From: a virus
DNA: 64,000 nt
Direction: 5' to 3' (one strand)
Virus record (IMG/VR): IMGVR_UViG_3300030098_005028
Coordinates: 32,001-96,000 of that record
Each line of letters starts with the position of its first letter. The stretch's first letter is position 1. The notes beneath the pieces were generated by a model, which saw nothing but the letters and a program-made list of their open reading frames with translations, made no database searches and was not told where the DNA came from. Positions 8,582 to 63,550 of the stretch are shown here, in pieces. The translations under genes were made by a program, and so were the position numbers.

Positions 8582-8582
8582 T

Positions 8583-13556: not shown

Positions 13557-14018
13557 TTATTCCTCGCATATTTTTAATATTGTATTTATGTCAAAATTTT
13601 CTAGAATATGATCTACTTTTCTGTTAAAAGAATTTTCTATCACAGAAGAATGATTATGACATCTAGATACTATTTTTATTTTATTATTAGAAAACAAATC
13701 AAGAACTGGATTATAGTTATGTGGCATACGCAGCCATTCTAAGTCCCAGACATAGTATATTTTTGTATTCGCTGAAGGATAAGATGCCATCTTCTTTGCT
13801 GTTGATAAAGAGGTAGCAATCATTATTCCTTCTTGACCCCAAGCCTCTGCCATTTGCATAGTTGGAAATCTAGCAAACATACAGTCTTTCTCTACATTTT
13901 CACAATAAACGGTTGGGTCTACGTTCCCTTTTCCAGCAACTTTGTTGAAATTATTTATCAAATAGTATGATAGCTGACTTGACCCAAGACTTCTTACTAA
14001 TGCTCCTATTTTTATCAT
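13557..14018 (-). CDS. Hypothetical protein resembling the N-terminal domain of a GT-B glycosyltransferase
   Basis: 'IATSLSTA...KIYYVWDLEW' resembles GT4 N-domain 'IAT...T...YFVQD'. Confidence 0.4.
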   Translation of the reverse strand: MIKIGALVRSLGSSQLSYYLINNFNKVAGKGNVDPTVYCENVEKDCMFARFPTMQMAEAWGQEGIMIATSLSTAKKMASYPSANTKIYYVWDLEWLRMPHNYNPVLDLFSNNKIKIVSRCHNHSSVIENSFNRKVDHILENFDINTILKICEE

Positions 14019-14953: not shown

Positions 14954-16712
14954 TTTGGTATCTCATTGTTTCCGTTGTTGTAAAGATTGTTGTGTTATCC
15001 ATATCCTGTATAAAGTCATATGGAATTCTAGAAACCATACTGTATCCTTCTAAAAAAGAATCAATGTCATCTGGATTCATAAACCAGAAAGGTCTAAATT
15101 TTTTATTATCAAAATTTTCTAGACTTGCACATGTTTTGGTATCTGTACAAGTCATATCTTCTATAATTATTTCTTTAGCAGAAGATTCTGTTATATCTTT
15201 TAGTATTTTTGAAGGTTCTTTTTCATATTGTACTTTTGATTTTATGTATACGACATCAGACTCCTGTAAATCAAACGTATACTCAACGTCTTCATATAGG
15301 GCATCCAATAGAGATGAAACCTCATCTTTTTCTTCTACAATGATTGAGTACCTCTTATGTTGGCCTTCTTCTATTGATGAAATTAGTCCATGATATTTTT
15401 TCTTGAAGTGTGGCAGGTCAATGCACACATCTTCTTCTTTCTGCCTAACTTCTGGCTGTTCTGTTTTTATACTAATTACTTGATCAAAAGAGTCATACAT
15501 CCCTTTATATAGTCTGCTTGATTTCTGTCTTATTATTTTTGGGGATGGAATGTGAGTTATAAACTTCCCTCCTCGGTTGGCAAAGTCAACTTCTTTGGCG
15601 AATATTTCTTCGGTAAAATTCCAAGCTCCAAGAAAGGCATAATCTACACTATCATCGAAGTGAGATGGGTCTAGTATTGGAATATGCATTCCCGGTGAAA
15701 ATTTGTTTTGCTTTACCTCTGTATTATCTACAATGTAGTCGATTATTTCTGGGCCTATATTGCAATAGTTAAATATACATGTTGATTTTGATGTTGCTCC
15801 GTAGCTAACAATCTTGCTGCCGTTCTTCTTTATAGCCGTCAACATTTCTACTAGTTCATCTCTAGAACTCTGTACATTTCTGGCAAAGGCCTGATAGGTC
15901 TCCAGATTGTCTATTCCCATAGACTGTTCTTCTCTCAAAGAGGCTTCTACACATGGATCGACCTTTACATGAGAGTTTTCTTTGGTCTTTGCAAATACTC
16001 TATTAGAACCTCCATGAACACTGGTTCTTTGTACATCAAATATCTCCATACCTGCATTCTGAAGAAGATTATTCAAAGATGTTAAAGAGAAGAGGTGTGC
16101 GTGTTCATCATATATCTGGTCATAAGAATTTCTTATAAGCATGTCTACAACACAAGGGTCTTCAAAGATAAACACACCATTAGTATCATCCAGAACGTGT
16201 CTAACCGCATGAAATGCCTCTTGTATGTCTGGAATATGACACATACAGTTTGCAGAGTAAACTAAATCCACAAAATAAAGATCTTTGATCTTCTTTGCAG
16301 ATTCCATGTTCCAGAACACATTGAATGTGTCGTAGCCCATTTCTCTGGTCATCTCAGCAAAATTTCCACACGGCTCTACTGATATCGCTTTATTGGTATC
16401 AAAGTGTTTCAAAAATACTCCGTCATTGCTTCCTATTTCTAGTATTCTGCGATATGGATTAGACTCAATCTCTTTAGCAACAGAAGCAAAGTGATCCCTC
16501 ATTGTCTGCGAACCTGAAGAATGATACATGTAGCTATCATTAAACATTAGTGGTGGATCTACAAATTCCATCAGAGAAACTAGTTTAGTCTCATCATCAA
16601 ATCCTACTTTCATGTCAAAGAAAAATTCTTCTTCATTGCTTTCTAGTTGTTCTTTTGTTAGGAAACCATTTGCTATTGGATGTCTTCCTAAGTCTAAAAA
16701 TTCGGTCTGCAT
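14931..16712 (-). CDS. NDP-hexose C-methyltransferase (TcaB9/NovU-like) with ~200 aa C-terminal extension
   Basis: 'LDLG..P.AN.F', 'LEIGSNDG', 'YDQIYDEH', 'VHGGS', 'YGA.SK', 'K..PG.HIPI', 'AWNF'. Confidence 0.9.
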   Translation of the reverse strand: MQTEFLDLGRHPIANGFLTKEQLESNEEEFFFDMKVGFDDETKLVSLMEFVDPPLMFNDSYMYHSSGSQTMRDHFASVAKEIESNPYRRILEIGSNDGVFLKHFDTNKAISVEPCGNFAEMTREMGYDTFNVFWNMESAKKIKDLYFVDLVYSANCMCHIPDIQEAFHAVRHVLDDTNGVFIFEDPCVVDMLIRNSYDQIYDEHAHLFSLTSLNNLLQNAGMEIFDVQRTSVHGGSNRVFAKTKENSHVKVDPCVEASLREEQSMGIDNLETYQAFARNVQSSRDELVEMLTAIKKNGSKIVSYGATSKSTCIFNYCNIGPEIIDYIVDNTEVKQNKFSPGMHIPILDPSHFDDSVDYAFLGAWNFTEEIFAKEVDFANRGGKFITHIPSPKIIRQKSSRLYKGMYDSFDQVISIKTEQPEVRQKEEDVCIDLPHFKKKYHGLISSIEEGQHKRYSIIVEEKDEVSSLLDALYEDVEYTFDLQESDVVYIKSKVQYEKEPSKILKDITESSAKEIIIEDMTCTDTKTCASLENFDNKKFRPFWFMNPDDIDSFLEGYSMVSRIPYDFIQDMDNTTIFTTTETMRYQNDKLVSH

Positions 16713-17038
16713 CTCAACTCCTTGTGCGGTTCTATCTTTTCTAAATCTAATGCCTCAAAAGAGTTGAAGCATCTGTCGCAAATCATTACATCGTATGCGG
16801 GTTTTTTGAATCTGAGTTCATGGTATTTGACTCCATATTTTTCAAATTGAGATTTCGTAAGTTCAGTCCAATCTTCACCGCTTACACTTCCTCTAGCTGT
16901 CCAATAAACTATGTGATGCCCTTCATCATATAATTTGTTTGCTTTTTCAATATTTTTAATTATTGGCTTTGCTTTTTTATAGTTACAATTTTTACTTTGT
17001 GTAAATATGGTATTATCTATATCTATGTATATTTTCAT
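16694..17038 (-). CDS. HAD-superfamily phosphatase (capsule-biosynthesis type)
   Basis: 'IDIDNTI', 'WTARG', 'KP.YD..I.D'. Confidence 0.85.
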   Translation of the reverse strand: MKIYIDIDNTIFTQSKNCNYKKAKPIIKNIEKANKLYDEGHHIVYWTARGSVSGEDWTELTKSQFEKYGVKYHELRFKKPAYDVMICDRCFNSFEALDLEKIEPHKELRCRPNF

Positions 17039-17688
17039 CGTGTCATGTAATGAGACCTCAAAACTAGTCTCTCATTTCCTTCTCTAAGAACTCCTCCAAA
17101 GTGAAATATATCGCTATCAAATATCAATAAATCACCAGCTTTTCCGGTCATCGGTGTCGAATCTTTTTTAGATATATCAAGATGTGGATAGTCTATTTCT
17201 ATTCTGTTTTTTACTTGACTATAATCTGATGAGTTAGACCAAGCTTTTTTTCTTAGCTGTGCGCCTAGATATCTACTTCCTTTTACGACACTAAAAGGGC
17301 CACAGTCCTCATCACAATCAGTTAGGTAAAGAAAAAATTTAAGAGTATGAAATCTATCAAAATGGAGATATCCGTTTCTAGCAAGTTCTTCATTAGCTAT
17401 ATAATCATGAGTCGCTTGGATTGCGTGTAAGTAGTTATCACCTAAGTACTCTTGTTTTGTTGACTTTATCAATTCATTATCGAATACTTTTCTTACTTCG
17501 CTTGAAGGAGGAGCCAGATTTTCCAATGGTATGAAGTTGAGTGCTTTTCCAAATTGATAGCCTCCTTCTGAAAAATTTTCTATTTTTTCCAACACTTCTT
17601 GCTTTATTGTTTCTATATCTTCTAAAGGAACAAACCCTTCTAGTTTGACTATGCCTTCTTTCAGTATTTCTCTAGGTAGATCTTGCAT
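17035..17688 (-). CDS. PhyH-family 2-oxoglutarate/Fe(II) dioxygenase
   Basis: 'LHFD' (HxD), 'YLTD....GP...GS', 'GD..IFD....H.G', terminal R. Confidence 0.85.
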   Translation of the reverse strand: MQDLPREILKEGIVKLEGFVPLEDIETIKQEVLEKIENFSEGGYQFGKALNFIPLENLAPPSSEVRKVFDNELIKSTKQEYLGDNYLHAIQATHDYIANEELARNGYLHFDRFHTLKFFLYLTDCDEDCGPFSVVKGSRYLGAQLRKKAWSNSSDYSQVKNRIEIDYPHLDISKKDSTPMTGKAGDLLIFDSDIFHFGGVLREGNERLVLRSHYMTR

Positions 17689-18607
17689 AATGTTTCACCG
17701 TCTTTTCTATATCTGAATGAAAATCGCCTTCATATTCAAAGCCTTCTGCTCTTAAAAATTGAGAACTTATAGAGTACCTTTGGTCATGACCAAGCCTATC
17801 TTCTACGAATTCAATATGCTCATCAGCTTCTTTGTTCATAACATCACAAATGAGCTTTATCATTTCAATATTTTGTAGCTCAATTCCAGAGGATATATTG
17901 TATATATTGTTTTTTAGGCTATCTCTATTTTTTATTATGAATCCTATTGCTGAGGCAGTTTCATACACAGAAGTCCATTCTCTTATTTGTTTTCCGTCTC
18001 CATAAAGAGGAACCTTCTTCCCTTCAGATATCCTAGTCACAGATTTAGGAAAAAGTTTCTCAGTATGTTGACGTGGGCCAAAATTATTAGATGGCCTAAC
18101 AATAATACATTCAACACCATATGTATTCTCATAGGCTTTTATCATCATATCTGCCGAGGCTTTTGTTGCAGCATATGGATTTTTTGGGTTCAACCTTGCA
18201 TATTCATGGAAAGAACCTTCTGCAATATCACCATATACTTCATCAGTAGAAACATGCAATAATTTGACTGAATCTTCTTTGCAAACTTCTAACAATGATT
18301 TAACACCGAGAACATTAGACCAAAGAAAATCGTCGCAAGATTCAATTGATCTATCAACGTGCGTGTGAGCAGCTAGATTTATAATCCATTGAATATCGTG
18401 ATTTTTACATATTGAGGATATATCCTGTTGTTGATTGATGTCTATTTTGTAGCCCGCTATCGCATTAGGCTCAAAATCAATCGTATTAGCTGGATTAGCG
18501 GCATATGTAAACGAGTCTATGGCCACAACACCGAAGCCGTTATTTGTAAACCAATCTGCTACATGGCTACCAATGAAACCGGCAGAACCTGTAATTGCTA
18601 CATTCAT
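17672..18607 (-). CDS. rfbB: dTDP-glucose 4,6-dehydratase
   Basis: 'TGSAGFIG', 'AA.THVDRSI', 'VSTDEVYG', 'PYAATK', 'DRLGHD.RY'. Confidence 0.95.
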   Translation of the reverse strand: MNVAITGSAGFIGSHVADWFTNNGFGVVAIDSFTYAANPANTIDFEPNAIAGYKIDINQQQDISSICKNHDIQWIINLAAHTHVDRSIESCDDFLWSNVLGVKSLLEVCKEDSVKLLHVSTDEVYGDIAEGSFHEYARLNPKNPYAATKASADMMIKAYENTYGVECIIVRPSNNFGPRQHTEKLFPKSVTRISEGKKVPLYGDGKQIREWTSVYETASAIGFIIKNRDSLKNNIYNISSGIELQNIEMIKLICDVMNKEADEHIEFVEDRLGHDQRYSISSQFLRAEGFEYEGDFHSDIEKTVKHYARST

Positions 18608-19473
18608 TAGACTATTCCGTAAAGATAATTACTGTATTCGTTCTTGCCTAGATTGCCCGCAAGATGTAAGAGTTGCCTTTTGCTGATGTAGCCTAGATTA
18701 TATGCTATCTCTTCCAAGCAGGCAATCTTCAAACCCTGTCTTTTTTCGATTGTCTGTATAAAGTTTGATGCCTCTAATAGAGAATCATGAGAACCAGCGT
18801 CGAACCAAGCATAACCTCGCCCAAATATCTCAAGCATCAACTTCTTGCTTTTCAAGTACACATTATTGACATCGGTTATTTCAAGTTCGCCTCTTGAAGA
18901 AGGACTTATGGTTTTTGCAATTTTTACTACATCATTACTATACATATATAGCCCGACAGCCGCACAATTTGATTTTGGATTTTCAGGCTTTTCCTCGATG
19001 CTTACGACACGTCTATTTCTGTTATATTCTATGACACCATATTCTCTTGCGTCATTAACATGATAACCAAATATTACAGATTTGTTATTTTCAGTTATTT
19101 CTCTGCTAGTTCTAAGAATAGTTGGTAAAGCATCTCCATAAAATATATTATCGCCAAGTATCAAACAAACAGAGTCATCGCCAATAAATTCTTCGGCTAT
19201 TATAAAGCATTCAGCTATTCCTTTTGGCGATTCTTGAATGTTATATTCAATATTTATTCCAAGATGAGAACCGTCTTCAAAAAGAGACTTATATAAATTA
19301 ATCTGGTCAGGCCTTGTAATAACCATGATATCTTTTATTCCTGCCAGCATTAATGTTGACATTGGATAATATATCATCGGCTTATTATATATAGTAAGTA
19401 GCTGCTTCGTTATTACATTAGTTGCTGGATAAAGTCTTGAGCCTGATCCACCAGAAAGCACTATTCCCTTCAT
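18607..19473 (-). CDS. rfbA: Glucose-1-phosphate thymidylyltransferase
   Basis: 'KGIVLSGGSGSRLYP.T...KQL...KPMIYYP', 'LGDNIFYG', 'EKP', 'RGELEITD', 'RG.AW.D.G'. Confidence 0.97.
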   Translation of the reverse strand: MKGIVLSGGSGSRLYPATNVITKQLLTIYNKPMIYYPMSTLMLAGIKDIMVITRPDQINLYKSLFEDGSHLGINIEYNIQESPKGIAECFIIAEEFIGDDSVCLILGDNIFYGDALPTILRTSREITENNKSVIFGYHVNDAREYGVIEYNRNRRVVSIEEKPENPKSNCAAVGLYMYSNDVVKIAKTISPSSRGELEITDVNNVYLKSKKLMLEIFGRGYAWFDAGSHDSLLEASNFIQTIEKRQGLKIACLEEIAYNLGYISKRQLLHLAGNLGKNEYSNYLYGIV

Positions 19474-20543
19474 GACATTGTTCTCAAAAAACCTTGTAAA
19501 TTATCTATTTCTTGCTCACAAAGAGAGTAAGTATCTTCTAAAAAGTAGTACTGTTCTGGCAAATCTATATTAAAAGGGTTTAGTGAACCCACTATTGTTT
19601 GTAAATCTATTAGCCTTGAATCATCACAATACTTTTTAGATTCATCTATCTTACTGACAAGAAGGTCAACATCATCGACTCTGGGGGTGTACATTTCTAT
19701 ATAGCATTTTCTAAAATGATCCCTGCATACATCAAAATCCTCGCCATCACACATAGACATCGCAAATGTGATGCCATCTGTCATTTTAGCAAAGTTCTCA
19801 GGCCATTCACCCTGTCTAATCCATGTATTTTGATCTGGAAAATGTATGTGTCTTTCTCCTCCTTCCACCCTTGGTGTACCATGCTCATGAATAATGTGAC
19901 AGAAAGAATTGTCTCTCATACCGTCTCCCCAAATTATGCTTAGAAACCCTATCATTTGATCGCAGAATCTAAGGTTAGATGGGCTAAGATACCATAATAT
20001 GCTCCAATTCATTTGTGCCGATTGAGTTCTTATAACATTATGCCAATTGCTGTGAAATCTTGTTGCTTGACTGTGAATTCTTTCTGCCGATGTGTCTCCT
20101 GTGATTGACTCAGGAAATTCGGTATACATAGGAGATCTTTCTTCGATTCCTCTCTCTCCAATATGCACCCCTGTCTTTCCCCCTCTAGCCGAACAGAAAT
20201 CTCTATTTTTGTTTAAGAAATCAATACAAGACTTTATTCCATTTATTGTAAAAAAATCATCATTGTCTATAACCATACATAGGGGCGTTTCGACTGCTAG
20301 TAATGATCTAGCGACTTTTCCATAGAAATCCTGAACTGTTTTGTCATATGGAAATCTAAGATATTCAATTTTCAATCCATCATAATAGTTTGATTCTATG
20401 CTTTTTTGTATTCTTGAGTCTATTTCTCCCCCATCAGCTATGACCAAAGGGAAAGGGCATTCTATTTCATACAAATAAGCCAAGAGACGGCGAGAATAGA
20501 ACTCTCTGCCTTTGATTGGTAATACTAGTGTTAGATCATTCAT
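19470..20543 (-). CDS. GT2-like glycosyltransferase (TIGR00180-like)
   Basis: 'LTLVLP.KGR', 'IADGG', 'DNDDF'. Confidence 0.75.
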   Translation of the reverse strand: MNDLTLVLPIKGREFYSRRLLAYLYEIECPFPLVIADGGEIDSRIQKSIESNYYDGLKIEYLRFPYDKTVQDFYGKVARSLLAVETPLCMVIDNDDFFTINGIKSCIDFLNKNRDFCSARGGKTGVHIGERGIEERSPMYTEFPESITGDTSAERIHSQATRFHSNWHNVIRTQSAQMNWSILWYLSPSNLRFCDQMIGFLSIIWGDGMRDNSFCHIIHEHGTPRVEGGERHIHFPDQNTWIRQGEWPENFAKMTDGITFAMSMCDGEDFDVCRDHFRKCYIEMYTPRVDDVDLLVSKIDESKKYCDDSRLIDLQTIVGSLNPFNIDLPEQYYFLEDTYSLCEQEIDNLQGFLRTMS

Positions 20544-21252
20544 TTAATTCTCTTTTCATTTTATCTAGATTCATAGAGGTATCTTTTGGCATTATTTCAC
20601 TAATATCTTCTAGATATATTTTTCCAACATCTGGATTATCTTTTTTTGCGAATTCATATATGCTAGACGATTTTCCTCCTATGTTTATTGTTCCTTTCTT
20701 GTCTAAAAGCATAAGTATTATGTCTGCTACGTCATCATCATATATTAGACTTTTTTTAGAATCTGCTATCGCTGATTTATGAGGAAATGGCTTAGAACAC
20801 ATCGCTACTCTTAGGATGAGATGATTGTCGTGCATTCTTACAGCACATTCGCCTCCAAGTTTAGACCAAGCATACTTATTTATTGGTAATATCGGGTCTT
20901 CTTCTTTGTAGTCTCCAGTCAATCCGGGATAAACAAAGTCAGTTGATATATAAACAAGCTTTATCCCCATCATTATGCAGGTCGCAGCGACATGAGATGT
21001 TCCAACAATATTAGTATGCAGGCTTTCCAAAGGGTTATTATCATGAATATTCATTGGCCGTGTCAATGCGGCGGTATGTATGATTACATCTGGCTTTACA
21101 GCACCAACCCAAAATGTAATGTCTGACATTGATTTGATATTCATCTCCCCTTTTGGAGGAGCGACTATGTCATGATTACGACTACGGTTTGACTGAATTA
21201 TTTTTTTTGCCAGCTTTCCTTCGCCGCCGGTAATTAATATCTTCATACCCAA
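20536..21252 (-). CDS. rfbD: dTDP-4-dehydrorhamnose reductase-like SDR
   Basis: 'ITGG.G.L', 'IH.AA.T', 'YISTDFV..G', 'Y.EED...P.NKYA.SK'. Confidence 0.85.
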   Translation of the reverse strand: MGMKILITGGEGKLAKKIIQSNRSRNHDIVAPPKGEMNIKSMSDITFWVGAVKPDVIIHTAALTRPMNIHDNNPLESLHTNIVGTSHVAATCIMMGIKLVYISTDFVYPGLTGDYKEEDPILPINKYAWSKLGGECAVRMHDNHLILRVAMCSKPFPHKSAIADSKKSLIYDDDVADIILMLLDKKGTINIGGKSSSIYEFAKKDNPDVGKIYLEDISEIMPKDTSMNLDKMKRELNE

Positions 21253-22144
21253 GTAACTCCAGAGTTTCAGCTATTGCATTTTCAACTTTTCCGCAAGGTC
21301 GCCATTCAGTTAACTCTAATAGCTTTTTATTACTGACCTTATAACTATGTTGATTTAATAATGGGGTATCAACAAATTCTACATCAAGATGACTGACATA
21401 CTTCTTTATTTCTTCTACAATTTCTGAAAGCTTGTGATTGTCTGTCAAGACATTGTATGTCTGATTATATACAAGCTCTTCGTCTAGTATATGTCTCATT
21501 AATGAACATAGATCTGACAGGCACAAATATGGCCTATAATGATGATAATTTTGTTTCCAAACACTAAGAGGCTTGTTAAAAGCTGCTTGATAACAGAATT
21601 TATTTATTGCAGTATGGAATCTCATTCCATTGCTAATTCCGTATATAGTACCAAGCCTTAAAATTATATATTTAGTTTCTTGTAGGTTTTCATTAATCCA
21701 GTCTTCTACCCATACCTTCGTCTCAGCGTAAGGGCTTTGTGCATTTACATATTTTTTATCTTCATTTACTAATTTATCTGAAGTTCCGTAGACACTGGTC
21801 GAAGATGGAAATATTACTGTCTTTACTTTTGAATGTTCTACCTTAGTTAAAAATTTACAAGTCTGTTCTACATTAACTTTCCAAACCCATTTTGGATCTC
21901 TAAAGCTAGATGCAGCATCAGTTATAGCTGCCAAATGAATAACAGCATCAAATTTATCTAAAAAAGATTTGTCTAAATCAATAAATGAATGGTCAACAAA
22001 CCTAATATTTTTTTCTAGATTGAATAATGAGCAGTACCTCTGAGTACTTAAATTGTCACATACAGTTAGATCGTAATCAGATAAAAACCTAATCAAGCCC
22101 GATCCTATATGTCCAAGACCGCCTGTTATTAAGATTCTTTCCAT
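21182..22144 (-). CDS. NAD-dependent epimerase/dehydratase (extended SDR)
   Basis: 'ITGGLGHIG', 'HLAA', 'SS.SVYG', 'PYA.TK'. Confidence 0.9.
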   Translation of the reverse strand: MERILITGGLGHIGSGLIRFLSDYDLTVCDNLSTQRYCSLFNLEKNIRFVDHSFIDLDKSFLDKFDAVIHLAAITDAASSFRDPKWVWKVNVEQTCKFLTKVEHSKVKTVIFPSSTSVYGTSDKLVNEDKKYVNAQSPYAETKVWVEDWINENLQETKYIILRLGTIYGISNGMRFHTAINKFCYQAAFNKPLSVWKQNYHHYRPYLCLSDLCSLMRHILDEELVYNQTYNVLTDNHKLSEIVEEIKKYVSHLDVEFVDTPLLNQHSYKVSNKKLLELTEWRPCGKVENAIAETLELLGYEDINYRRRRKAGKKNNSVKP

Positions 22145-22527
22145 TCTAAAAATTCCTCATAATTTCTTATGTAATCTTCTTCCATATAAAGATGGCTACA
22201 CAAAACTAAAAGTACAGAGTTATTTGTAGTGTAAACTTGCTCTGCCCAAACCCCAGCGGGTATGATAATTCCTTTACTTGCAGAGTTTATATGTATCGTT
22301 TGCTGTTCTTTTCCGTCTTTTAGTATTACAGTAATTCCACCATTTATACATACTAAGAGTTGTTCAGTCATTACATGTGCATGACCACCACGCTTTTCCC
22401 CTGCACTAACTCCATAAACATAGAATACTCTTTGGAAGTCAAAAGGTGCTTCTTTCAAGTTTTCTATTACTGTTAGGTTTCCTCTTTCGTCAGAGAATGT
22501 AGGCAAGTCAATTCTTTGAATATTCAT
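22129..22527 (-). CDS. fdtA: dTDP-6-deoxy-3,4-ketohexulose isomerase (FdtA/QdtA/WxcM-like cupin)
   Basis: 'DERGNL', 'PF..RVFY', 'RGGHAH', 'Y.E.DYIR.Y'; start chosen at the ATGA overlap. Confidence 0.9.
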   Translation of the reverse strand: MNIQRIDLPTFSDERGNLTVIENLKEAPFDFQRVFYVYGVSAGEKRGGHAHVMTEQLLVCINGGITVILKDGKEQQTIHINSASKGIIIPAGVWAEQVYTTNNSVLLVLCSHLYMEEDYIRNYEEFLEWKES

Positions 22528-22973
22528 TTGTTTTCTGTTTCCCATTCTTCACCAAAGTCACCAACCTTGGCTCTGAATTCATCTGAAGGATCATATTTTT
22601 CTGATAGATAGTATAGCATTATTGAGTTTGGCTCCAACGCTTGGTATCCATGATAAACTCCCGGTGGTATTTTTATTACTCTTTGTTCTCTTTCAGTAAT
22701 ATATAAGAACTCTGTTTTCTCTCCAGTTGACAAGCCAACTTTAAAAGAGCCTTTTATGCATACCCAAAAGTCAGTCTGTTTTTCATGCTTGTGCCAAGCA
22801 ACTATATGTTTAGTTGAATTAACATAAGAAATATTGATTTGCCCTTTCATAGAATCCTTCCCTGTAAATGAATCGTCAAATACATCTAAGTATCTTTCAG
22901 CACGATCATCTATATGGAAAGGAATCTTTTTGGCGTAATAGTTTTTTTTAGGAGATTTATCTGACTTTTTCAA
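22524..22973 (-). CDS. rfbC: dTDP-4-dehydrorhamnose 3,5-epimerase-like cupin
   Basis: 'DDR', 'AWH.H..Q.D', 'IPPGVYHGYQAL', 'YDP.DE'. Confidence 0.75.
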   Translation of the reverse strand: MKKSDKSPKKNYYAKKIPFHIDDRAERYLDVFDDSFTGKDSMKGQINISYVNSTKHIVAWHKHEKQTDFWVCIKGSFKVGLSTGEKTEFLYITEREQRVIKIPPGVYHGYQALEPNSIMLYYLSEKYDPSDEFRAKVGDFGEEWETENK

Positions 22974-23647
22974 AACAATATCCCCTGACTTATCATTTCT
23001 TCTGCTTTTTCTAAATCTTCAGCGGTATCAATGTCTACATACATTGATCTTGGTATTTCGACACCTTTGACATTTCCGACAAAAAAGTTTTTGTGTTCTC
23101 TAATATGAGACCAGTGAGACATATAGAACGAACCATTTGGCTTGTAGTATTTTTGGATGAATTTGCTGTTTGTCAATCCAGAAGTTAGGTTGTCAAAAAC
23201 TGGAAAAACGCTGTCATTCCTCTTAATCATAGCGAGTTGTATTGGTTCAGAATATTCACTAATACTAACTACAGAGTCACATTCTCGGAGAATCTCAATC
23301 GCTTTCGATATATCTTCTGTCTTCCTAAAAGGACATGTTGGCAAAAAGTAAGAAAAGACATCGTGTCTTTCCACATCTTGCATCATAGCAATTAACGCAG
23401 AAAGAACCGTTGCTTTCTCTGTAGCATACTCAGCAGGCCTATCATATATTTCTACGTCGTAATCCTTCGCTACATCTTTTATTTCTTGTGAGTCAGTAGA
23501 TACAATAATAGTATCAAATTCTCCAGAGTCTATTACTGTCTCTATTGTATGAACAATGAGTGGTCTGCCTCCTAAAAGACGAATGTTCTTATCTTTTAGT
23601 CTAGTCGATCCACCTCTCGCCGGTATAACAGCTAGTCTTGTGATCAT
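22970..23647 (-). CDS. CMP-ulosonic acid synthetase (NeuA/PseF-like cytidylyltransferase)
   Basis: 'IPARGGS.R..KN', 'VSTD', 'PT.P.R', 'NGS.Y', 'DID...D'. Confidence 0.9.
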   Translation of the reverse strand: MITRLAVIPARGGSTRLKDKNIRLLGGRPLIVHTIETVIDSGEFDTIIVSTDSQEIKDVAKDYDVEIYDRPAEYATEKATVLSALIAMMQDVERHDVFSYFLPTCPFRKTEDISKAIEILRECDSVVSISEYSEPIQLAMIKRNDSVFPVFDNLTSGLTNSKFIQKYYKPNGSFYMSHWSHIREHKNFFVGNVKGVEIPRSMYVDIDTAEDLEKAEEMISQGILF

Positions 23648-24366
23648 CCTTTTCTCCTTAGATAGCCATCTGGATGACAGGAGAACAATAGTTTGTTGCG
23701 AATCCTTTCATCTCTCTCAAAATTTTCATTAGAATCCAGAAACTCATTCAAAGCGGTTCGTGGGTTATTTCCTTTACCCCATTCTTTATCTCTGTGAAGT
23801 TTTGGCATGTCTTCAATAACAGTGTCTGCACAAATCAAGTAGCATCCTTCACTTACCAGTTCACTATATATATTAAGTTCTTTTAGTACATGTTCATGTG
23901 TATGGTGAGAGTCGAGTATTACCATGCATTTACCATCTACCTTGTTTTTTATTTGATCTAATGTTTCTTTGTGTAAAGAAGAGCCTTCTAGAAATATCAA
24001 CTCTACTCCAATATTTTTTTTAGTTACTCTATCTAACATGTCTTCTGGCATGTAGATGTCGATACCTATTAATGATTTGCCACCATACATAGCCATTAAT
24101 GTCGAGTAAAATAGTGATGATCCTCCCCAAGCTACTCCTACCTCAATAATATGGTCTGGCTTAGTATCAAGAATTATTTCTTGTATTGCAAACATATCTT
24201 GCGGTAACTGAAGGACTGGTTCTCCTTGCCAATTAGTTTGGTTAATCCAGTGATAACTGTCAGCATGACACAAAGTGCTTATTGCCTTATTCTTCAAAGA
24301 TTTGTCTTCCCACATATCTTTTGCTTCAGACAGTCGTAGTTCCTCAAATTCTTCCCTAGTGTACAC
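23644..24366 (-). CDS. CmcI (cephalosporin hydroxylase)-family SAM O-methyltransferase
   Basis: 'W.G.P..Q.PQD...QE.I...KPD.IIE.GVA.GGS', 'VILDS.HT..HVL.EL', 'NNP.TA'. Confidence 0.9.
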   Translation of the reverse strand: MYTREEFEELRLSEAKDMWEDKSLKNKAISTLCHADSYHWINQTNWQGEPVLQLPQDMFAIQEIILDTKPDHIIEVGVAWGGSSLFYSTLMAMYGGKSLIGIDIYMPEDMLDRVTKKNIGVELIFLEGSSLHKETLDQIKNKVDGKCMVILDSHHTHEHVLKELNIYSELVSEGCYLICADTVIEDMPKLHRDKEWGKGNNPRTALNEFLDSNENFERDERIRNKLLFSCHPDGYLRRKG

Positions 24367-25123
24367 AGGCTTTGATCTCCTCTTGTTTTGTAATCAAATA
24401 ATCGACTCTAGAAAGATCTATTTGGCAGTCGGCATCTGAAGTAGACGAAGGAGGATGAGGATGAACCTCGGCAAATACAGCGTCATAGCCAAACACGCCA
24501 GATGATAGAAGATATTTTTCTGCTAATGACCTATCTCCTTGAGTACCATACACATGCCTGCTTCTTTGTGTAGAGTGAGTACAGTCAATTACAACTTTGT
24601 CATAACACTTTTTCAATTCTTCTATAATAGTAAAATCGACAATCAACTTGTCGTAACCATAGTTAGAACCCCTGTCGCATACCCATGCCTCTGTACTAGG
24701 GTCTGTATCTTTAATTTTATCTAAAGACTTAATCAGGTTGTTAGGCCCGATCCACTGACCCTTCTTTATGTTTACTTTGTCAAATGACTGAGCAGAAGCA
24801 ACTATTAGGTCTGTTTGACGACATAGAAAAGCAGGGATTTGCACCAAGTCAATCACACCAGCAAGCTTTTCTACCTGCCACACTTCATGAATATCTGTGG
24901 TTAATTTTATAGTAGGGTGCTTTTCTTTTACCTCACGAAAAAGTTCAATCCCTTCTTCCAAACCAACACCACGTCCTCCGTATAAAGAAGTACGATTAGC
25001 TTTATCAAAAGAGGCTTTATAATACCAGTCACGATCACCCATTATTTCTACTAAGTGATCAGCCGTATTTAGGTACATCTCCCTGTTGTCAATAGTACAA
25101 GGCCCTAGTATCCAAGTGGTCAT
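24356..25123 (-). CDS. kdsA: 3-deoxy-8-phosphooctulonate (KDO8P) synthase-like
   Basis: 'GPC', 'KASFDKANRTS', 'TTD.HE', 'QIPAFLCRQTDL', 'N.KKGQ', 'D.THS.Q', 'F.EVH', 'SD'. Confidence 0.92.
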   Translation of the reverse strand: MTTWILGPCTIDNREMYLNTADHLVEIMGDRDWYYKASFDKANRTSLYGGRGVGLEEGIELFREVKEKHPTIKLTTDIHEVWQVEKLAGVIDLVQIPAFLCRQTDLIVASAQSFDKVNIKKGQWIGPNNLIKSLDKIKDTDPSTEAWVCDRGSNYGYDKLIVDFTIIEELKKCYDKVVIDCTHSTQRSRHVYGTQGDRSLAEKYLLSSGVFGYDAVFAEVHPHPPSSTSDADCQIDLSRVDYLITKQEEIKACVH

Positions 25124-26007
25124 TTAACAATCTCCAAAATTTTAGCAATTCTCTTTTTCTCTGTAGGTGTGACAGAAGGAAAGGGATGCCTATTGTAATC
25201 ACAAAATCCTAGCTGACGAAGAGCCTCCCTCATCGCCTTGTGCCATCCAATTGACATAAACACATCGAATAACTGTGTCTCTTTATGGATGTAGAACATA
25301 CTTTTTGTCTTAAAGTATTCTATTTCTTGCTTTGGAAACATACTTCCAATGCCAGAGACGAAGGATTGTACACCGGTGGGTTGTAGCGCATTGAAGCGAC
25401 GAATACTCCCGCCAGCAACTATAACACAGAAATTCTTCTTGTCAATATCTTTGCATACATTAAATGCCAATCCGAGGTCAGAAGTTTCTTCTTTCATGCC
25501 AAATATGTTTTTATGAGAAGAAATCTTATTAATTAATTCTGCTGTATAATCATAAGACCCTCCAGTTCCCTTACGCATGAACATACCATGAAATATTACG
25601 GGTAACTTACTTCTATCTGCTATCTTATGAAAGTAGCTAACAATGGTCTTATCGTCATAATATCTATCAGGATAAAGAGCCATTAAAAAAGTTTTATTAC
25701 TTTTCTTCATCTTTTCGTTATAAAAGTCAACATCATCAAGTACAGACCGTAAATCTTTTCCCTGAAGACCAATTATCTTTGTATTTACGAAAGAGTCATA
25801 GAGAGTAAAGTTGAGAGAAAATATTTCTTCCTTACTTAGAAGATTATATTGAGAAGTCCCTGCTGTAGTCATAACGCATTTTGCGCCATTTGATTGCAAG
25901 TATGATATGTACTTTTTTGTCTTTGCTAGATCTAGGTCTCCGTTTCTTTTATAAGAAGGAGGCAACGCAAAAGATGGTGTGTCGCATAACATTTTTGACT
26001 TATTCAT
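25120..26007 (-). CDS. DapA/NanA-family class I aldolase (dihydrodipicolinate synthase / N-acetylneuraminate lyase-like)
   Basis: 'AGTSQYNLLS.EE', Schiff-base 'GMKEE'. Confidence 0.8.
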   Translation of the reverse strand: MNKSKMLCDTPSFALPPSYKRNGDLDLAKTKKYISYLQSNGAKCVMTTAGTSQYNLLSKEEIFSLNFTLYDSFVNTKIIGLQGKDLRSVLDDVDFYNEKMKKSNKTFLMALYPDRYYDDKTIVSYFHKIADRSKLPVIFHGMFMRKGTGGSYDYTAELINKISSHKNIFGMKEETSDLGLAFNVCKDIDKKNFCVIVAGGSIRRFNALQPTGVQSFVSGIGSMFPKQEIEYFKTKSMFYIHKETQLFDVFMSIGWHKAMREALRQLGFCDYNRHPFPSVTPTEKKRIAKILEIVK

Positions 26008-26641
26008 AAGATATAATTAATCCTTTGTCTATCAATTCTTTTATTTTAGATCTTTCATATTTGTAGTGATGGGTCATATGAGTCCCTTTGTCTTCCCAGT
26101 AATGCTGCGCGAACTCGTCATTCAACCCAAAACCGAATATATGAGGTATGACACCAACACGAATACATAGGTGTATTATCGCAAAACCTATGCTTGGTCT
26201 TCTATGGCCCGTGTTAACTTGACATATGTGTTGTATTGAAGAGTAGTCTCCTAGATAAGGATCGCAAGACGAATGTATGTTCTCATGTCTTGACCTCCAT
26301 TCATCACCCCTGCCGTTATGTTCATTAGTCTGTGGGCCAATCATTAATATTTTCATATTTCTAAGATCTTTGACGAAGTTTGCTGGTTGACCTTTGTTCG
26401 TCCAGTTGCCGACTCTTGGGTGCGGCACATTTGAAAATACATGTTGATTAGCAACACGAATAGTGGTTCTAGAACCTACATGGGTTTCATAGCTTTCTGT
26501 TGGCGCTCTGTTAAATCTAACTATGTCGTCGAATTCGTCAATGAATTCACCGTATGTTCTATTAAGTATAGATGGACTAGAAGCAATTATTGCTATGTTG
26601 TTACTTACATCTAGGTCTGGAGTTACATATTGAAGTATCAT
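26000..26641 (-). CDS. GT29 sialyltransferase-like glycosyltransferase
   Basis: Sialylmotif L 'IAIIASS..L....GEFIDEFD.IVRFNRAP...YE.HVGSRTT', motif S 'PSIG...IHLC...IFGF', motif III 'HYWE', VS 'HHYKYE'. ATG at 26641 forms an ATGA overlap. Confidence 0.88.
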   Translation of the reverse strand: MILQYVTPDLDVSNNIAIIASSPSILNRTYGEFIDEFDDIVRFNRAPTESYETHVGSRTTIRVANQHVFSNVPHPRVGNWTNKGQPANFVKDLRNMKILMIGPQTNEHNGRGDEWRSRHENIHSSCDPYLGDYSSIQHICQVNTGHRRPSIGFAIIHLCIRVGVIPHIFGFGLNDEFAQHYWEDKGTHMTHHYKYERSKIKELIDKGLIISYE

Positions 26642-27321
26642 CCACAACATCCTCCTGAACTTACATTTTCAATAGCACCTAAGTCTTTTAAGAGAAGAAC
26701 GTCTACTGAGTCTTCTTCTCCGTTTGGATTTGTGCCAAATGTATCCCATTTGAATATCGTATACCCATTTTTCTTTATTGTTTGCAAAAACTCTGACTTG
26801 TTATATGAAAATTTATATGTCTTTATTCCGTATGGTGTTTGATAAACTTCGCTATTACTTTTTTCTTTTGTTATTGGTATTCTCTGCAAAATTATCATAT
26901 TTGCGCATATGCTAAGTATGTGTTCTAGGCATTCATTTCCATTTGGTAGTATGTCTATCAGCCCATTAACAACAATAAGGTCATTATCAAAAATATCATC
27001 CCACTTGATATCTTGATAAGATTTGTTATAAAAACTACCAATCTCTCCAAATGATTCACTTGCTAGGTCAACTGCCTCTTTTGAATAGTCATACCCTATG
27101 TATTGAACATCCTCAAACTCTTGCGCTACTATCATTGAGTAGGCACCACACCCACAACCAATGTCAATAACTCTAGAAATTCTCTTCCTTACCATCGTTG
27201 CCTGATCAACAAAATGGTGCCAATGTGCAGGCCATTCATTTTGAAACTGGCTTATGTTAAGTCTTAATTGCTGTACAAATACATCTCTGTTTTTCCATGA
27301 GTCAATGTGTTCGGAATTCAT
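26638..27321 (-). CDS. Class I SAM-dependent methyltransferase
   Basis: 'VIDIGCGCG', 'Y.GYD.S'. Confidence 0.85.
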   Translation of the reverse strand: MNSEHIDSWKNRDVFVQQLRLNISQFQNEWPAHWHHFVDQATMVRKRISRVIDIGCGCGAYSMIVAQEFEDVQYIGYDYSKEAVDLASESFGEIGSFYNKSYQDIKWDDIFDNDLIVVNGLIDILPNGNECLEHILSICANMIILQRIPITKEKSNSEVYQTPYGIKTYKFSYNKSEFLQTIKKNGYTIFKWDTFGTNPNGEEDSVDVLLLKDLGAIENVSSGGCCG

Positions 27322-28195
27322 TTAGCTGATCCTCAAACCTTTTTTTCAACTTGTCCATATTCTGTAGAATTATCTCTGGGTGTTCTTCTTCAAAAGGCTT
27401 TGTTCTACAAGAGCCTCTTACACTAGGTTTGAACTCATGAACACCGTCATACTCTTCTTCTATTCGACTTCTGGTTGATTGACTTCCAGTAACCCAAGGA
27501 AGGTATACATTTTCAAAATAATCATCAATACAATTTTGTTTACTTACCGCTGCTTTATAGTAGCTTACTTTTTGTTTTACTTGTTGAGGGAAGACGTAGC
27601 TGTAGTGATACATTCTGACACCAAGTTTTTCATCCAGCGTATTATGGTCTAGGTGTCTTTTTGGCAATCTTTCGTGTATAGGTATCGTGTGAGCTATAGT
27701 AGGAGGTCTATGTGTTGCCCAATAAGAACCCGGATATACCTTTCGGATTCTCATAAATTCTGCTCCTTCTTCAAATCCTCCTAATACATTATCAAATCCC
27801 CCATAGAAACTTCTGCTTCTGAAACCTACTGAAGTGATTTTGAACTCTTCCAATACCTCCATGATCGTTTCAATATCTCTTGACTTGAATACTTCATCAC
27901 AATCTAAGTTCCATATGTAATCATTGTCTTCATCCAAAAGTTTCATATATGTATTGCACTGATGATCCTTTTCCTGATATTGGCTACTTACGATCTGTAT
28001 TTTATTTTCAGGGTCTGGAATAGAATTCAATACTTCTATGGTTCCATCTGTAGACTTGGATAGTCCTTGTTGTTGCCAGTATGTTACTGGGCCTTCAGCA
28101 ATCAAAATTTGATTTGCATATGGGTAAACAGATTTTATGCACTCTTCAAGTACATAGTTTCCATTAAGAACAATCATTCCAAAGGCTATCTTCAT
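27302..28195 (-). CDS. GT2-like glycosyltransferase
   Basis: 'GMIVLNG', 'S.DGT', 'LDCDE', 'HYSY'. Confidence 0.8.
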   Translation of the reverse strand: MKIAFGMIVLNGNYVLEECIKSVYPYANQILIAEGPVTYWQQQGLSKSTDGTIEVLNSIPDPENKIQIVSSQYQEKDHQCNTYMKLLDEDNDYIWNLDCDEVFKSRDIETIMEVLEEFKITSVGFRSRSFYGGFDNVLGGFEEGAEFMRIRKVYPGSYWATHRPPTIAHTIPIHERLPKRHLDHNTLDEKLGVRMYHYSYVFPQQVKQKVSYYKAAVSKQNCIDDYFENVYLPWVTGSQSTRSRIEEEYDGVHEFKPSVRGSCRTKPFEEEHPEIILQNMDKLKKRFEDQLNEFRTH

Positions 28196-29100
28196 AGTTT
28201 ATATGTACTCTTTATCATGTATGTGCAGTCATAGTAATTGTCGTAAACATCTTTTATTCCTAAGTTAGGCAATATATTTCCCCATTCTCCATGCCTGTCT
28301 ACTCTATATAAACCCTCATCATAGTTAGGATTGAAATGGGAGAAGTGATTGAAAACTAAATCTTGAGTCACTTTCCCCTGCTTCATTACAAATTGAGAGT
28401 CCCACATTATTTTCTTATCTTGTATTTCAGCATGAGGAAAATTCCAAGGCGCACCATGCCCTATGTCTTCGTCTATAATTTTTACATTGTTCTGACCAAA
28501 TATCTCCCCAAACAACTCTAGGTACTTTTGATCTCCGCATGTGCCATGTGTGACAGAAAACCTATTATTAGTATCAACAACCACATCCTTCCAAAAACTT
28601 GAGCAGGGCAGACCTACCTCATCGTTACGGAAGTACACAATACCTACATTGTAATAACCAGTACGGCTATTAGACTCAAGCGATTGGTGCTTATGGGTAA
28701 TTAATCCAATAGAGTAATTATCTACACAGTCAAATATGACTCGTGGGTCTTTATAAAATAGAATATCGGAGTCCACATAGAGACACTCACTACATTTTTT
28801 CAATACAAAGTTTGTAAAGAAGGCCGACAAAGCCCAATGAAATTCACAATGACCATCAGGATGTGTTCCATCGTCCCTAGCGTTATTCTTCTTTAGTAGT
28901 TCAAAGTCGTCACTAGCTAAATCATCCAACCTATACGGAATAATCTCTCTGAAGTTTATATCGTTTAACTTGTGATAGGCAGTATCATCTGTACAAAGAT
29001 AATGTAATTCAAATGGTTCTGATGCGTACTGCCTTATCGAATGATACATCGTAAGACCATATGTAAGATATTTACTGTCTGAAAGAGTTGCGAATATCAT
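28192..29100 (-). CDS. GT-A glycosyltransferase (GT8-like)
   Basis: 'YVDSD..F', 'YNVG', 'GDQKYL', 'APWN', 'F.HFS'. Confidence 0.8.
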   Translation of the reverse strand: MIFATLSDSKYLTYGLTMYHSIRQYASEPFELHYLCTDDTAYHKLNDINFREIIPYRLDDLASDDFELLKKNNARDDGTHPDGHCEFHWALSAFFTNFVLKKCSECLYVDSDILFYKDPRVIFDCVDNYSIGLITHKHQSLESNSRTGYYNVGIVYFRNDEVGLPCSSFWKDVVVDTNNRFSVTHGTCGDQKYLELFGEIFGQNNVKIIDEDIGHGAPWNFPHAEIQDKKIMWDSQFVMKQGKVTQDLVFNHFSHFNPNYDEGLYRVDRHGEWGNILPNLGIKDVYDNYYDCTYMIKSTYKL

Positions 29101-63536: not shown

Positions 63537-63550
63537 CCTTATTCCTAAAT

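What the first reader, a model, noticed from the sequence alone, without database searches (positions are those of the whole stretch)
22970..26641. Self-contained ulosonic-acid module ending in a eukaryote-type GT29 sialyltransferase
Seen: adjacent GT29 (all four sialylmotifs L, S, III and VS; no TM anchor), DapA/NanA-like aldolase, KdsA-like synthase (N-terminal GPC Cys of the metal-dependent type), CmcI methyltransferase and NeuA-like CMP-synthetase, with a HAD phosphatase at 16694. Known: synthase, phosphatase, CMP-activation and transfer is the canonical logic for Kdo/sialic acids, and GT29 is mainly eukaryotic with scattered bacterial and viral members. Inference: pairing KdsA (not NeuB) with a NeuA-type (not KdsB-type) activator, an extra aldolase and GT29 suggests a non-standard, possibly O-methylated, 8- or 9-carbon keto acid transferred by a phage enzyme.
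Basis: partly seen in the sequence, partly recalled or inferred. Interest (0 to 1): 0.8.

Follow-up and report, generated by a model that had tools for sequence, protein, structure and literature searches.

The report
Phage Kdo-type sugar module with GT29
An uncultured 143-kb phage carries a tightly packed gene set that most likely builds an eight-carbon acidic sugar related to Kdo, activates it with CMP and attaches it with a small soluble relative of animal sialyltransferases; one conserved enzyme in the set has no known role in such pathways.

Summary
Five overlapping minus-strand genes (22970-26650) encode a NeuA/PseF-type cytidylyltransferase, a CmcI methyltransferase, a metal-type KdsA, a divergent DHDPS/NAL-family protein and a real GT29. 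The GT29 passes the Pfam cut-off, has all four sialylmotifs and its model matches sialyltransferase structures. It has no anchor and lacks the motif-L Cys.

Comparison adds four points.
- DHDPS-like and KdsA are a near-obligate pair: 26 of 29 viral loci, and also bacterial polysaccharide loci, in the order phosphatase, DHDPS-like, KdsA, methyltransferase, cytidylyltransferase.
- The small HAD at 16694 belongs to the module. Its orthologue is fused to the DHDPS-like protein in another phage.
- Two close relatives share GT29, CmcI and cytidylyltransferase at 86-89% identity, but one has KdsA and the other NeuB.
- One contig fuses GT29, cytidylyltransferase and NeuB in one ORF.

The DHDPS-like enzyme keeps the Schiff-base Lys but has His where the family's catalytic Tyr lies. 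This points to a modified, probably O-methylated, Kdo-derived sugar.

"Self-contained" is overstated: the genome has no arabinose-5-phosphate isomerase, and the phosphatase lies 6 kb away. Sugar identity, acceptor and host are unknown.

The scan noted similar modules before on other DNA. I found no paper describing it in the library searched.

The parts
26000..26641 (-). Minimal soluble GT29-family glycosyltransferase, the proposed CMP-ulosonic acid transferase. The ORF runs to 26650; the likely start is 26641.
   Evidence: PF00777 at 76.4 bits. phmmer hits to ST6Gal1, ST3Gal1 and ST8SiaIII. AF2 model pLDDT 92.9; Foldseek top hit ST8SiaIII at E 6.6e-11. Four sialylmotifs. SD and ATGA start.
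25120..26007 (-). Divergent NAL/DHDPS-superfamily enzyme. It keeps the Schiff-base Lys172 and has His140 in place of the catalytic Tyr. Its role in the pathway is unknown.
   Evidence: PF00701 at 38 bits. Profile against PDB E 8e-18, with K/H mapping. AF2 pLDDT 96.6; TM about 0.8 to DHDPS, NAL, KdgD and L-KDA dehydratase alike. Paired with KdsA in 26 of 29 viral loci.
24356..25123 (-). Metal-dependent-type Kdo-8-phosphate synthase (KdsA).
   Evidence: NF003543 at 247.2 bits against a 242 cut-off. 1FWN E 1.9e-53 with Cys, His, Glu and Asp ligands, KANR and CRQTD conserved. It is the only PF00793 gene in the genome.
23644..24366 (-). CmcI/RMNT-family SAM methyltransferase, the proposed O-methylase of the acid sugar.
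   Evidence: PF04989 at 207.4 bits. Recurs next to KdsA- or NeuB-type modules in L003, L004, L013, L014, L021 and L024.
22970..23647 (-). NeuA/PseF-type CMP-ulosonic acid synthetase.
   Evidence: PF02348 at 95.4 bits. PseF model 139.9 bits (below cut-off) against 65.6 or less for KdsB. PDB NeuA 1.7e-23. It is the only PF02348 gene in the genome. Orthologues at 60-72% identity follow KdsA directly in most of 11 other viral loci.
16694..17038 (-). Small HAD phosphatase (DxDxT), the proposed Kdo-8-P phosphatase. In this phage it is displaced from the module.
   Evidence: Motifs. The orthologue is fused to the DHDPS-like protein in L020 (398 aa, 55% identity) and lies just upstream of DHDPS in L022, L053/54, L056, L069 and L074.
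17035..17688 (-). PhyH-family 2OG/Fe(II) oxygenase, a possible tailoring enzyme of the acid sugar.
   Evidence: PF05721 at 42.2 bits. Homologues sit directly beside KdsA or the cytidylyltransferase in L006, L053/54, L058-65 and L071.
26638..29100 (-). Conserved block just upstream of GT29: class I methyltransferase (26638-27321), GT2-like (27302-28195) and GT8-like (28192-29100). Proposed builders of the acceptor glycan.
   Evidence: Pfam. The same order GT8-like, GT2-like, MT, GT29 occurs in most related phage loci, with the GT2-like protein 58-64% identical.

Best explanation
The five genes, together with the displaced HAD phosphatase and probably the PhyH oxygenase, are a phage copy of a conserved cassette. 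The cassette makes and transfers a CMP-activated, Kdo-derived eight-carbon 2-keto-3-deoxy acid sugar.

Proposed steps:
1. Host arabinose-5-phosphate and PEP are condensed by the metal-type KdsA to Kdo-8-P. This is inferred from full conservation of KDO8PS signature residues.
2. The small HAD removes the phosphate. This is inferred from the gene fusion and adjacency.
3. The NAL-superfamily enzyme forms a Schiff base at C2 through Lys172 and changes the C2-C4 head of the sugar, for example by C4 epimerisation through retro-aldol and re-addition, or by dehydration. This is inference; the reaction is unknown.
4. CmcI O-methylates the sugar, at an unknown stage.
5. The NeuA/PseF-type enzyme makes the CMP-sugar.
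6. The soluble GT29 transfers it as a cap onto a glycan built by the adjacent conserved GT8-like and GT2-like enzymes.

The 35 ORFs of the 28-kb island contain no membrane-spanning segment. The acceptor is therefore most likely cytoplasmic, plausibly a phage structural protein.
For: - Family assignments and the GT29 fold.
- The genome has one KdsA, one PF02348 gene and one GT29, and no NeuB or KdsD.
- The genes overlap like an operon, and GT29 has an SD and ATGA start.
- GT29, DHDPS-like and KdsA recur together in 10 GT29-centred loci. DHDPS-like is paired with KdsA in 26 of 29 DHDPS-centred viral loci.
- The same order GT29, ~100-aa ORF in the HAD position (no Pfam hit), DHDPS, KdsA, MT, cytidylyltransferase occurs on a 512-kb contig.
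- A cassette of phosphatase, DHDPS-like, KdsA, MT and cytidylyltransferase lies in two polysaccharide loci with Wzx or Wzm/Wzt genes, one in a Spirochaetota MAG and one on an unclassified metagenome contig.
- Fusions: HAD with DHDPS, and GT29 with cytidylyltransferase and NeuB in one ORF.
- Two related phages carry either KdsA or NeuB with GT29, CmcI and cytidylyltransferase 86-89% identical.
- In the DHDPS-like family Lys172 and His140 are invariant in 56 sequences.
- No transmembrane segments in the island.
- O-methylated Kdo and Ko exist in nature (PMC10052234).
Against: - No biochemical data exist for any member.
- The KdsA passes only one of two NCBIfam KDO8PS equivalog cut-offs (238 against 314 for TIGR01362), so its aldose substrate could differ.
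- Fold comparison cannot tell what the DHDPS-like enzyme does.
- The window's cytidylyltransferase is only 30-37% identical to those in many other KdsA loci.
- The phosphatase and oxygenase are not contiguous with the module here.
- The acceptor, host and timing of methylation are unknown.
- The cytoplasmic-acceptor idea rests on a simple hydropathy scan and ignores host export machinery.
Confidence: 0.6

Rival explanations
1. The module makes ordinary CMP-Kdo. The DHDPS-like protein is an auxiliary Kdo aldolase that feeds Kdo from pyruvate plus D-arabinose, or balances the pool, rather than a modifying enzyme. The only novelty is the use of NeuA-type and GT29 enzymes for Kdo.
For: The KdsA signature residues are canonical. 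NAL-family enzymes are classically reversible pyruvate aldolases (established knowledge; PDB neighbours). GT29 has been linked to Kdo transfer in an E. coli K6 capsule ORF (PMC13171606).
Against: The polysaccharide-locus cassettes on non-viral contigs carry their own KdsA-like, phosphatase and NeuA-type genes beside the DHDPS-like gene; a dedicated set fits a distinct sugar better than plain Kdo, but the rest of those genomes could not be searched. The DHDPS-like/KdsA pairing is nearly obligate. The catalytic Tyr is replaced by an invariant His and the GxxGE motif is altered. The HAD-DHDPS fusion places the enzyme after dephosphorylation in the main line.
Confidence: 0.2
2. There are two parallel routes. 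The DHDPS-like enzyme, together with the HAD, is itself a synthase that condenses pyruvate with a dephosphorylated aldose into a second 2-keto-3-deoxy acid, independent of the KdsA product.
For: The HAD-DHDPS fusion is equally compatible with phosphatase followed by aldolase acting on an aldose. The DHDPS-like enzyme also accompanies NeuB in L014 and L025. Earlier scan notes describe phage modules with an aldolase but no KdsA or NeuB (unchecked).
Against: The genome has only one PF02348 cytidylyltransferase and one GT29. The DHDPS-like gene is almost never found without KdsA or NeuB in the loci examined.
Confidence: 0.1
3. The glycan is not put on a phage component. It remodels the host surface (LPS, capsule or S-layer glycan) during infection, using host lipid carriers and exporters, for example to exclude other phages.
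For: The related cassettes on non-viral contigs sit in Wzx or ABC-transporter polysaccharide loci. Published phage notes treat KdsA and KdsB as cell-wall modification genes (PMC12801897).
Against: The 35 ORFs of the island contain no initiating transferase, flippase, polymerase or other membrane protein. The island is very large for a lytic-type phage with its own replication genes. This rival concerns only the acceptor, not the sugar pathway.
Confidence: 0.25

Closest known systems
Canonical bacterial Kdo pathway (KdsD, KdsA, KdsC, KdsB, then WaaA GT30 or KpsC/KpsS-type transferases)
   Same: A KdsA with the complete KDO8PS signature (Aquifex metal type). The order of phosphatase step, CMP activation and transfer is the same.
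   Different: No KdsD. The phosphatase is a 114-aa HAD rather than KdsC. The activator is of NeuA/PseF type, not KdsB. The transferase is GT29. An extra NAL-family enzyme and a methyltransferase are conserved parts of the set.
Bacterial nonulosonic acid systems (NeuB, NeuA, sialyltransferases of GT42/52/80/38)
   Same: A NeuA-type cytidylyltransferase and a CMP-dependent transferase. Related phages carry NeuB in place of KdsA at the same position.
   Different: This genome has KdsA and no NeuB. The transferase is GT29, which is not among the bacterial sialyltransferase families listed here (my own knowledge of those families).
Eukaryotic GT29 sialyltransferases (ST3Gal, ST6Gal, ST6GalNAc, ST8Sia), plant GT29-like proteins proposed as Kdo/Dha transferases, and the E. 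coli K6 GT29-GT107 ORF
   Same: Pfam GT29 membership, all four sialylmotifs and the same fold (Foldseek E 6.6e-11 to ST8SiaIII).
   Different: About 213 aa with no transmembrane anchor, so presumably cytoplasmic. Ile replaces the motif-L Cys of ST6Gal1 and ST3Gal1. It belongs to a clade found mostly on virus contigs. The donor is probably an 8-carbon acid.
NAL/DHDPS superfamily (NanA, DapA, KDG aldolase YagE, KdgD, L-KDA dehydratase)
   Same: TIM-barrel fold (TM about 0.8) and a Schiff-base Lys in the GxK motif.
   Different: The catalytic Tyr of YNxP is replaced by an invariant His. GTTGE is replaced by GTSQ(F/Y). Identity to any solved member is 14-18%. The enzyme is embedded in an ulosonic-acid biosynthesis cassette.
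Synechococcus phage S-SCSM2R KdsA/KdsB pair (PMC12801897) and O-methylated Kdo/Ko in Methylobacterium LOS (PMC10052234)
   Same: A phage-borne KdsA next to a cytidylyltransferase, and a natural precedent for methylated Kdo-type sugars.
   Different: tblastn found no DHDPS-like or GT29 match in any cultured-phage record, S-SCSM2R included. Its KdsA is 40% identical to the window's. The Methylobacterium sugar has no known gene link to this cassette.

Membership tests
GT29 (CAZy) / Pfam PF00777 | HMM score above the curated cut-off | tested here: met
   76.4 bits against a 23 cut-off. The same gene is found in the whole genome at 74.2 bits.
GT29 (CAZy) / Pfam PF00777 | Sialylmotifs L, S, III and VS in order | tested here: met
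   L 19-50, S 152-175, III HYWE 183-186, VS H194...E199. All are conserved in 8 to 98 homologues.
GT29 (CAZy) / Pfam PF00777 | Sialyltransferase fold (modified GT-A) like solved ST structures | tested here: met
   AF2 pLDDT 92.9. Foldseek hits to ST8SiaIII, ST3Gal1, ST6GalNAc2 and ST6Gal1 at E 6.6e-11 to 2.7e-7, ahead of GT42 CstII.
GT29 (CAZy) / Pfam PF00777 | Type II membrane topology and the motif-L Cys (my own knowledge: it pairs with a motif-S Cys in animal enzymes) | tested here: not met
   No N-terminal hydrophobic segment. Ile aligns with the motif-L Cys of ST6Gal1 and ST3Gal1. The motif-S position was read by hand from a short weak alignment and is less certain.
GT29 (CAZy) / Pfam PF00777 | Transfer from a CMP-activated ulosonic acid | not testable with these tools
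   Supported only by context: adjacency to cytidylyltransferase and synthase genes, and a GT29-cytidylyltransferase-NeuB fusion ORF.
Kdo-8-phosphate synthase (KdsA, EC 2.5.1.55) | Equivalog HMM above cut-off | tested here: inconclusive
   NF003543 at 247.2 against 242 is met. TIGR01362 at 238.3 against 314 is not met.
Kdo-8-phosphate synthase (KdsA, EC 2.5.1.55) | Metal ligands Cys/His/Glu/Asp of the Aquifex type, the KANRS motif and the CRQTD segment | tested here: met
   Cys9, His183, Glu219 and Asp230, plus KANR 41-44 and CRQTD 101-105, aligned to 1FWN.
CMP-ulosonic acid synthetases (PF02348): NeuA/PseF versus KdsB | Family HMM, then equivalog-level assignment | tested here: inconclusive
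   PF02348 is met at 95.4 bits. PseF TIGR03584 at 139.9 is below its 205.7 cut-off. KdsB models reach 65.6 bits or less against cut-offs of 155 or more. It is nearest to NeuA and PseF but is an equivalog of neither.
NAL/DHDPS superfamily (PF00701) | Family HMM, TIM-barrel fold and Schiff-base Lys | tested here: met
   38 bits against a 22.1 cut-off. Profile against PDB E 8e-18. TM about 0.8. Lys172 is invariant.
NAL/DHDPS superfamily (PF00701) | Catalytic Tyr (YNxP) and GxxGE carboxylate-binding motif of DapA and NanA | tested here: not met
   His140 aligns with the Tyr. GTSQY replaces GTTGE. The DapA equivalog scores 37.8 against 206.
Canonical Kdo pathway | KdsD (SIS-domain A5P isomerase) present | tested here: not met
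   No PF01380 match in the 143-kb genome, while all 14 control genomes matched.

The most novel reading that the evidence does not exclude
The Lys/His NAL-family enzyme, obligately paired with a dedicated KdsA in phages and bacteria, defines an undescribed Kdo-derived sugar. It could be a C4 epimer or a dehydrated derivative, often O-methylated, with its own CMP-activating enzyme. The anchorless GT29 proteins of about 200 aa, found mostly on virus contigs, would then be a large hidden reservoir of sialyltransferase-type enzymes that can cap a conserved glycan with either 8- or 9-carbon acids, and would bear on the origin of eukaryotic GT29.
Probability: 0.35. Interest if true: 0.85.

Novelty: new variant of a known kind. 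Interest (0 to 1): 0.72.

Why it matters
- It gives a concrete, testable gene set for an unknown acidic sugar made by marine phages and some bacteria.
- GT29, usually regarded as a eukaryotic sialyltransferase family, has a large clade of small soluble members found mostly on virus contigs. At least 120 clusters at 50% identity score E 1e-30 or better.
- The natural KdsA/NeuB swap beside near-identical transferase, methyltransferase and activator offers a ready-made experiment on donor tolerance.
- Small GT29 enzymes with no membrane anchor and no motif-L Cys could be useful for glycoengineering in bacteria.

Tried and rejected
- blastn of 22000-28000 against 50,697 GenBank phage records found no match. 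The window has no tRNAs.
- tblastn against the same collection: GT29 matched only one uncultured 484-kb phage, the DHDPS-like protein matched nothing, and KdsA matched four records. No cultured model system was found.
- Host guess Verrucomicrobiota, prompted by two Opitutales MAG hits and an Atlas cluster, is not supported. GT29 was found in 1 of 301 genomes sampled and the DHDPS-like subfamily in 0 of 301. The Opitutales locus looks like a bacterial glycan locus without KdsA or NeuB.
- Fold search of the DHDPS-like model could not separate aldolase, synthase and dehydratase subfamilies.
- The promoter and terminator scan was uninformative: 66 promoter-like sites against 73 expected.
- Paper searches for phage GT29 or a DHDPS-KdsA cassette found nothing specific.
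- Counting KdsA copies in the genomes that carry the bacterial cassette was not possible, because those genomes are not held.
- A GT29 tree rooted with eukaryotic sequences was not built. Only motif L aligns by BLAST to the long eukaryotic forms.

Full report
**Setting.** The window is bases 32001-96000 of a 143-kb IMG/VR virus record rated 95% complete. It encodes phage replication genes: a split DnaE-type polymerase, a DnaB-like helicase, ribonucleotide reductase and a UvsX-like recombinase. From about 13.5 to 39.3 kb the minus strand carries an unbroken run of sugar-nucleotide, methyltransferase and glycosyltransferase genes. The finding lies in the middle of this island.

**Observation.** Five genes with overlapping ends occupy 22970-26650. 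Pfam assigns them, in order of transcription:
- GT29 (PF00777, 76.4 bits)
- DHDPS family (PF00701, 38 bits)
- DAHP_synth_1 (141.6 bits)
- RMNT_CmcI (207.4 bits)
- CTP_transf_3 (95.4 bits)

All are above the curated cut-offs.

The synthase is a KdsA. It reaches the NCBIfam KDO8P synthase equivalog NF003543 (247.2 against 242) but not TIGR01362. It aligns end to end with Aquifex KDO8PS, keeping the four metal ligands, KANR and CRQTD.

The cytidylyltransferase is nearest to PseF and NeuA and far from KdsB.

The GT29 protein hits ST6Gal1, ST3Gal1 and ST8SiaIII directly by phmmer and shows motifs L, S, III and VS. Its AF2 model (pLDDT 92.9) matches vertebrate sialyltransferase structures ahead of bacterial GT42 enzymes. 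It has no anchor, and Ile aligns with the motif-L Cys of ST6Gal1 and ST3Gal1. Its real start is probably the ATG at 26641, which has an AGGAGG 9 nt upstream and an ATGA overlap with the preceding gene.

**The GT29 family.** The word-indexed search found only eight relatives. A full HMM search of 1.8 billion representatives found 120 clusters at E 1e-30 or better and 1306 at 1e-10 or better. Most of the 150 best-scoring clusters are 190-235 aa long. IMG/VR gave 38 loci, and 185,579 species genomes gave two, both Opitutales MAGs. GenBank phages gave one uncultured megaphage. This is a clade found mostly on virus contigs, not a stray eukaryotic gene.

**Conserved context.** A tblastn map of the loci shows a conserved block, GT8-like, GT2-like, methyltransferase, GT29, followed by a variable donor pathway.
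- Ten loci, including the window, have DHDPS-like then KdsA.
- Eight distinct locus types have NeuB instead (Pfam 207-268 bits).

A scan centred on the DHDPS-like protein found 29 viral loci. Of these, 26 carry KdsA, immediately downstream in 24, and 3 carry NeuB. Cytidylyltransferases 60-72% identical to the window's occur in eleven of these loci, directly after KdsA in most.

Homologues of the window's small HAD (16694-17038, DxDxT motif) lie just upstream of the DHDPS-like gene in several phages. In L020 the HAD is fused to it in one 398-aa ORF. A 398-aa family member recorded on two contigs (P0177) may be the same fusion. A PhyH oxygenase like the window's 17035-17688 gene often sits beside KdsA or the cytidylyltransferase. 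In this window, about 5.3 kb of dTDP-sugar genes separate the oxygenase and HAD from the rest of the module.

**Beyond phages.** The DHDPS-like family occurs on long contigs that do not look viral. One is an unclassified JGI metagenome contig and one is in a Spirochaetota MAG. In both, the order Hydrolase_3 phosphatase, DHDPS-like, KdsA-like, class I methyltransferase, CTP_transf_3 lies inside polysaccharide loci with Wzx or Wzm/Wzt genes. Identities to the window proteins are 52-55% (KdsA), 45% (DHDPS-like) and 36% (cytidylyltransferase). A 512-kb contig shows GT29, a ~100-aa ORF in the HAD position (no Pfam hit), DHDPS-like, KdsA, MT and cytidylyltransferase in one run. The phage module is thus a copy of a wider, uncharacterised cassette, with GT29 added as the transferase.

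**Two natural experiments.**
- L024 and L014 are closely related phages, with neighbouring proteins 54-97% identical. Their GT29, CmcI and cytidylyltransferase are 89, 88.5 and 86% identical. The block between GT29 and CmcI differs: DHDPS-like plus KdsA in one, and a NeuB-SAF-AP_endonuc_2 fusion, a second DHDPS-like protein and an APH-family kinase in the other. Either the downstream enzymes tolerate both 8- and 9-carbon donors, or both routes converge on similar sugars.
- One contig carries a single uninterrupted 695-aa ORF joining GT29, CTP_transf_3 and NeuB. This ties the small GT29 directly to ulosonic-acid synthesis and CMP activation.

**The odd enzyme.** Across 56 family members, Lys172 (the Schiff-base Lys of GxK) and His140 are invariant. 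His140 aligns with the catalytic Tyr of DapA and NanA, and GTTGE is replaced by GTSQ(F/Y). The model is confident (pLDDT 96.6). It is equally similar to DHDPS, NAL, HOGA, YagE, KdgD and L-KDA dehydratase, at 14-18% identity. Because the enzyme accompanies both KdsA and NeuB, I infer that it acts on the shared 2-keto-3-deoxy head of these acids. Epimerisation at C4 or dehydration are chemically plausible, but neither is shown.

**Mechanism proposed.** Host A5P and PEP give Kdo-8-P (KdsA). The HAD removes the phosphate. The Lys/His enzyme modifies the sugar. CmcI methylates it, and PhyH possibly hydroxylates it. The NeuA-type enzyme makes the CMP-sugar, and GT29 caps a conserved glycan with it.

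The genome has no KdsD and no NeuB, and it has a single KdsA, a single PF02348 gene and a single GT29. The three must therefore work together unless the host supplies the donor. None of the 35 island ORFs has a transmembrane segment, which favours a cytoplasmic acceptor. A host-surface target remains possible.

**Known and new.**
- Methylated Kdo and Ko exist in Methylobacterium LOS (PMC10052234).
- A GT29-GT107 ORF is proposed to make poly-Kdo in E. coli K6 (PMC13171606).
- Papers on rhamnogalacturonan-II discuss plant sialyltransferase-like proteins together with Kdo and Dha (titles only). That these proteins are proposed Kdo/Dha transferases is my own knowledge.
- One cultured cyanophage is annotated with KdsA and KdsB (PMC12801897).

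I found no paper on phage GT29 enzymes or on the DHDPS-like/KdsA cassette.

Earlier AI notes of this scan describe similar modules on other DNA and reach similar readings. They are not independent evidence.

**Verdict.** This is a real, well-supported phage module and a new variant of the CMP-ulosonic acid pathway. It has one enzyme of unknown role, and the sugar, acceptor and host are unknown.

Noticed in passing
L020:8676-9872: A single 398-aa ORF fuses the small HAD phosphatase to the DHDPS-like enzyme. A 398-aa family member (P0177, not compared) is on record from two contigs. The same locus has two tandem GT29 paralogues (6549-7208 and 7983-8597).
   Followed up: partly
L080:4788-6875: One uninterrupted 695-aa ORF joins a GT29 domain, a CTP_transf_3 domain and a NeuB domain. 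Its GT29 part has a degenerate motif III.
   Followed up: partly
L014:8621-10474 and L017:9225-11114: NeuB-SAF fused to an AP_endonuc_2 (xylose-isomerase-like TIM barrel) domain. In L014 it is followed by a second type of DHDPS-like protein and an APH-family kinase. This looks like an unusual precursor-supply arrangement for a nine-carbon acid.
   Followed up: no
L003, L004, L010, L014, L047, L081: Sulfotransferase genes (PF00685, PF13469, PF03567, PF17784) recur next to the acid-sugar modules. In L081 the DHDPS-like ORF is 435 aa long with a faint Sulfotransfer_4 hit on its extra part. This hints at sulfated glycans.
   Followed up: no
window 14015-22973: A dTDP-sugar block separates the module from its HAD and PhyH genes. 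It contains RmlA, RmlB, two FdtA-like proteins, two SDRs (one only 238 aa, covering half the RmlD profile), a 593-aa C-methyltransferase, a DegT-like protein matching only the C-terminal 60% of the profile, and a TIGR04440 glycosyltransferase.
   Followed up: no
window 39717-43915: The DnaE-type polymerase is split into two ORFs (651 and 543 aa matching successive parts of phrog_405), with a 225-aa ORF between them.
   Followed up: no
window 37626-39341 and 62481-63569: Two further phrog_2170 glycosyltransferases. The second lies 23 kb beyond the island, among replication genes.
   Followed up: no
L007:7983-8624 (Opitutales MAG): A bacterial GT29 of the same small type (36% identity) sits with methyltransferases and a GT8-like gene. 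No KdsA or NeuB lies within 8 kb. This is the only hit in 301 Verrucomicrobiota genomes sampled.
   Followed up: partly
GenBank LR756508.1 around 324887-325342: An uncultured 484-kb phage has four places matching the small GT29.
   Followed up: no
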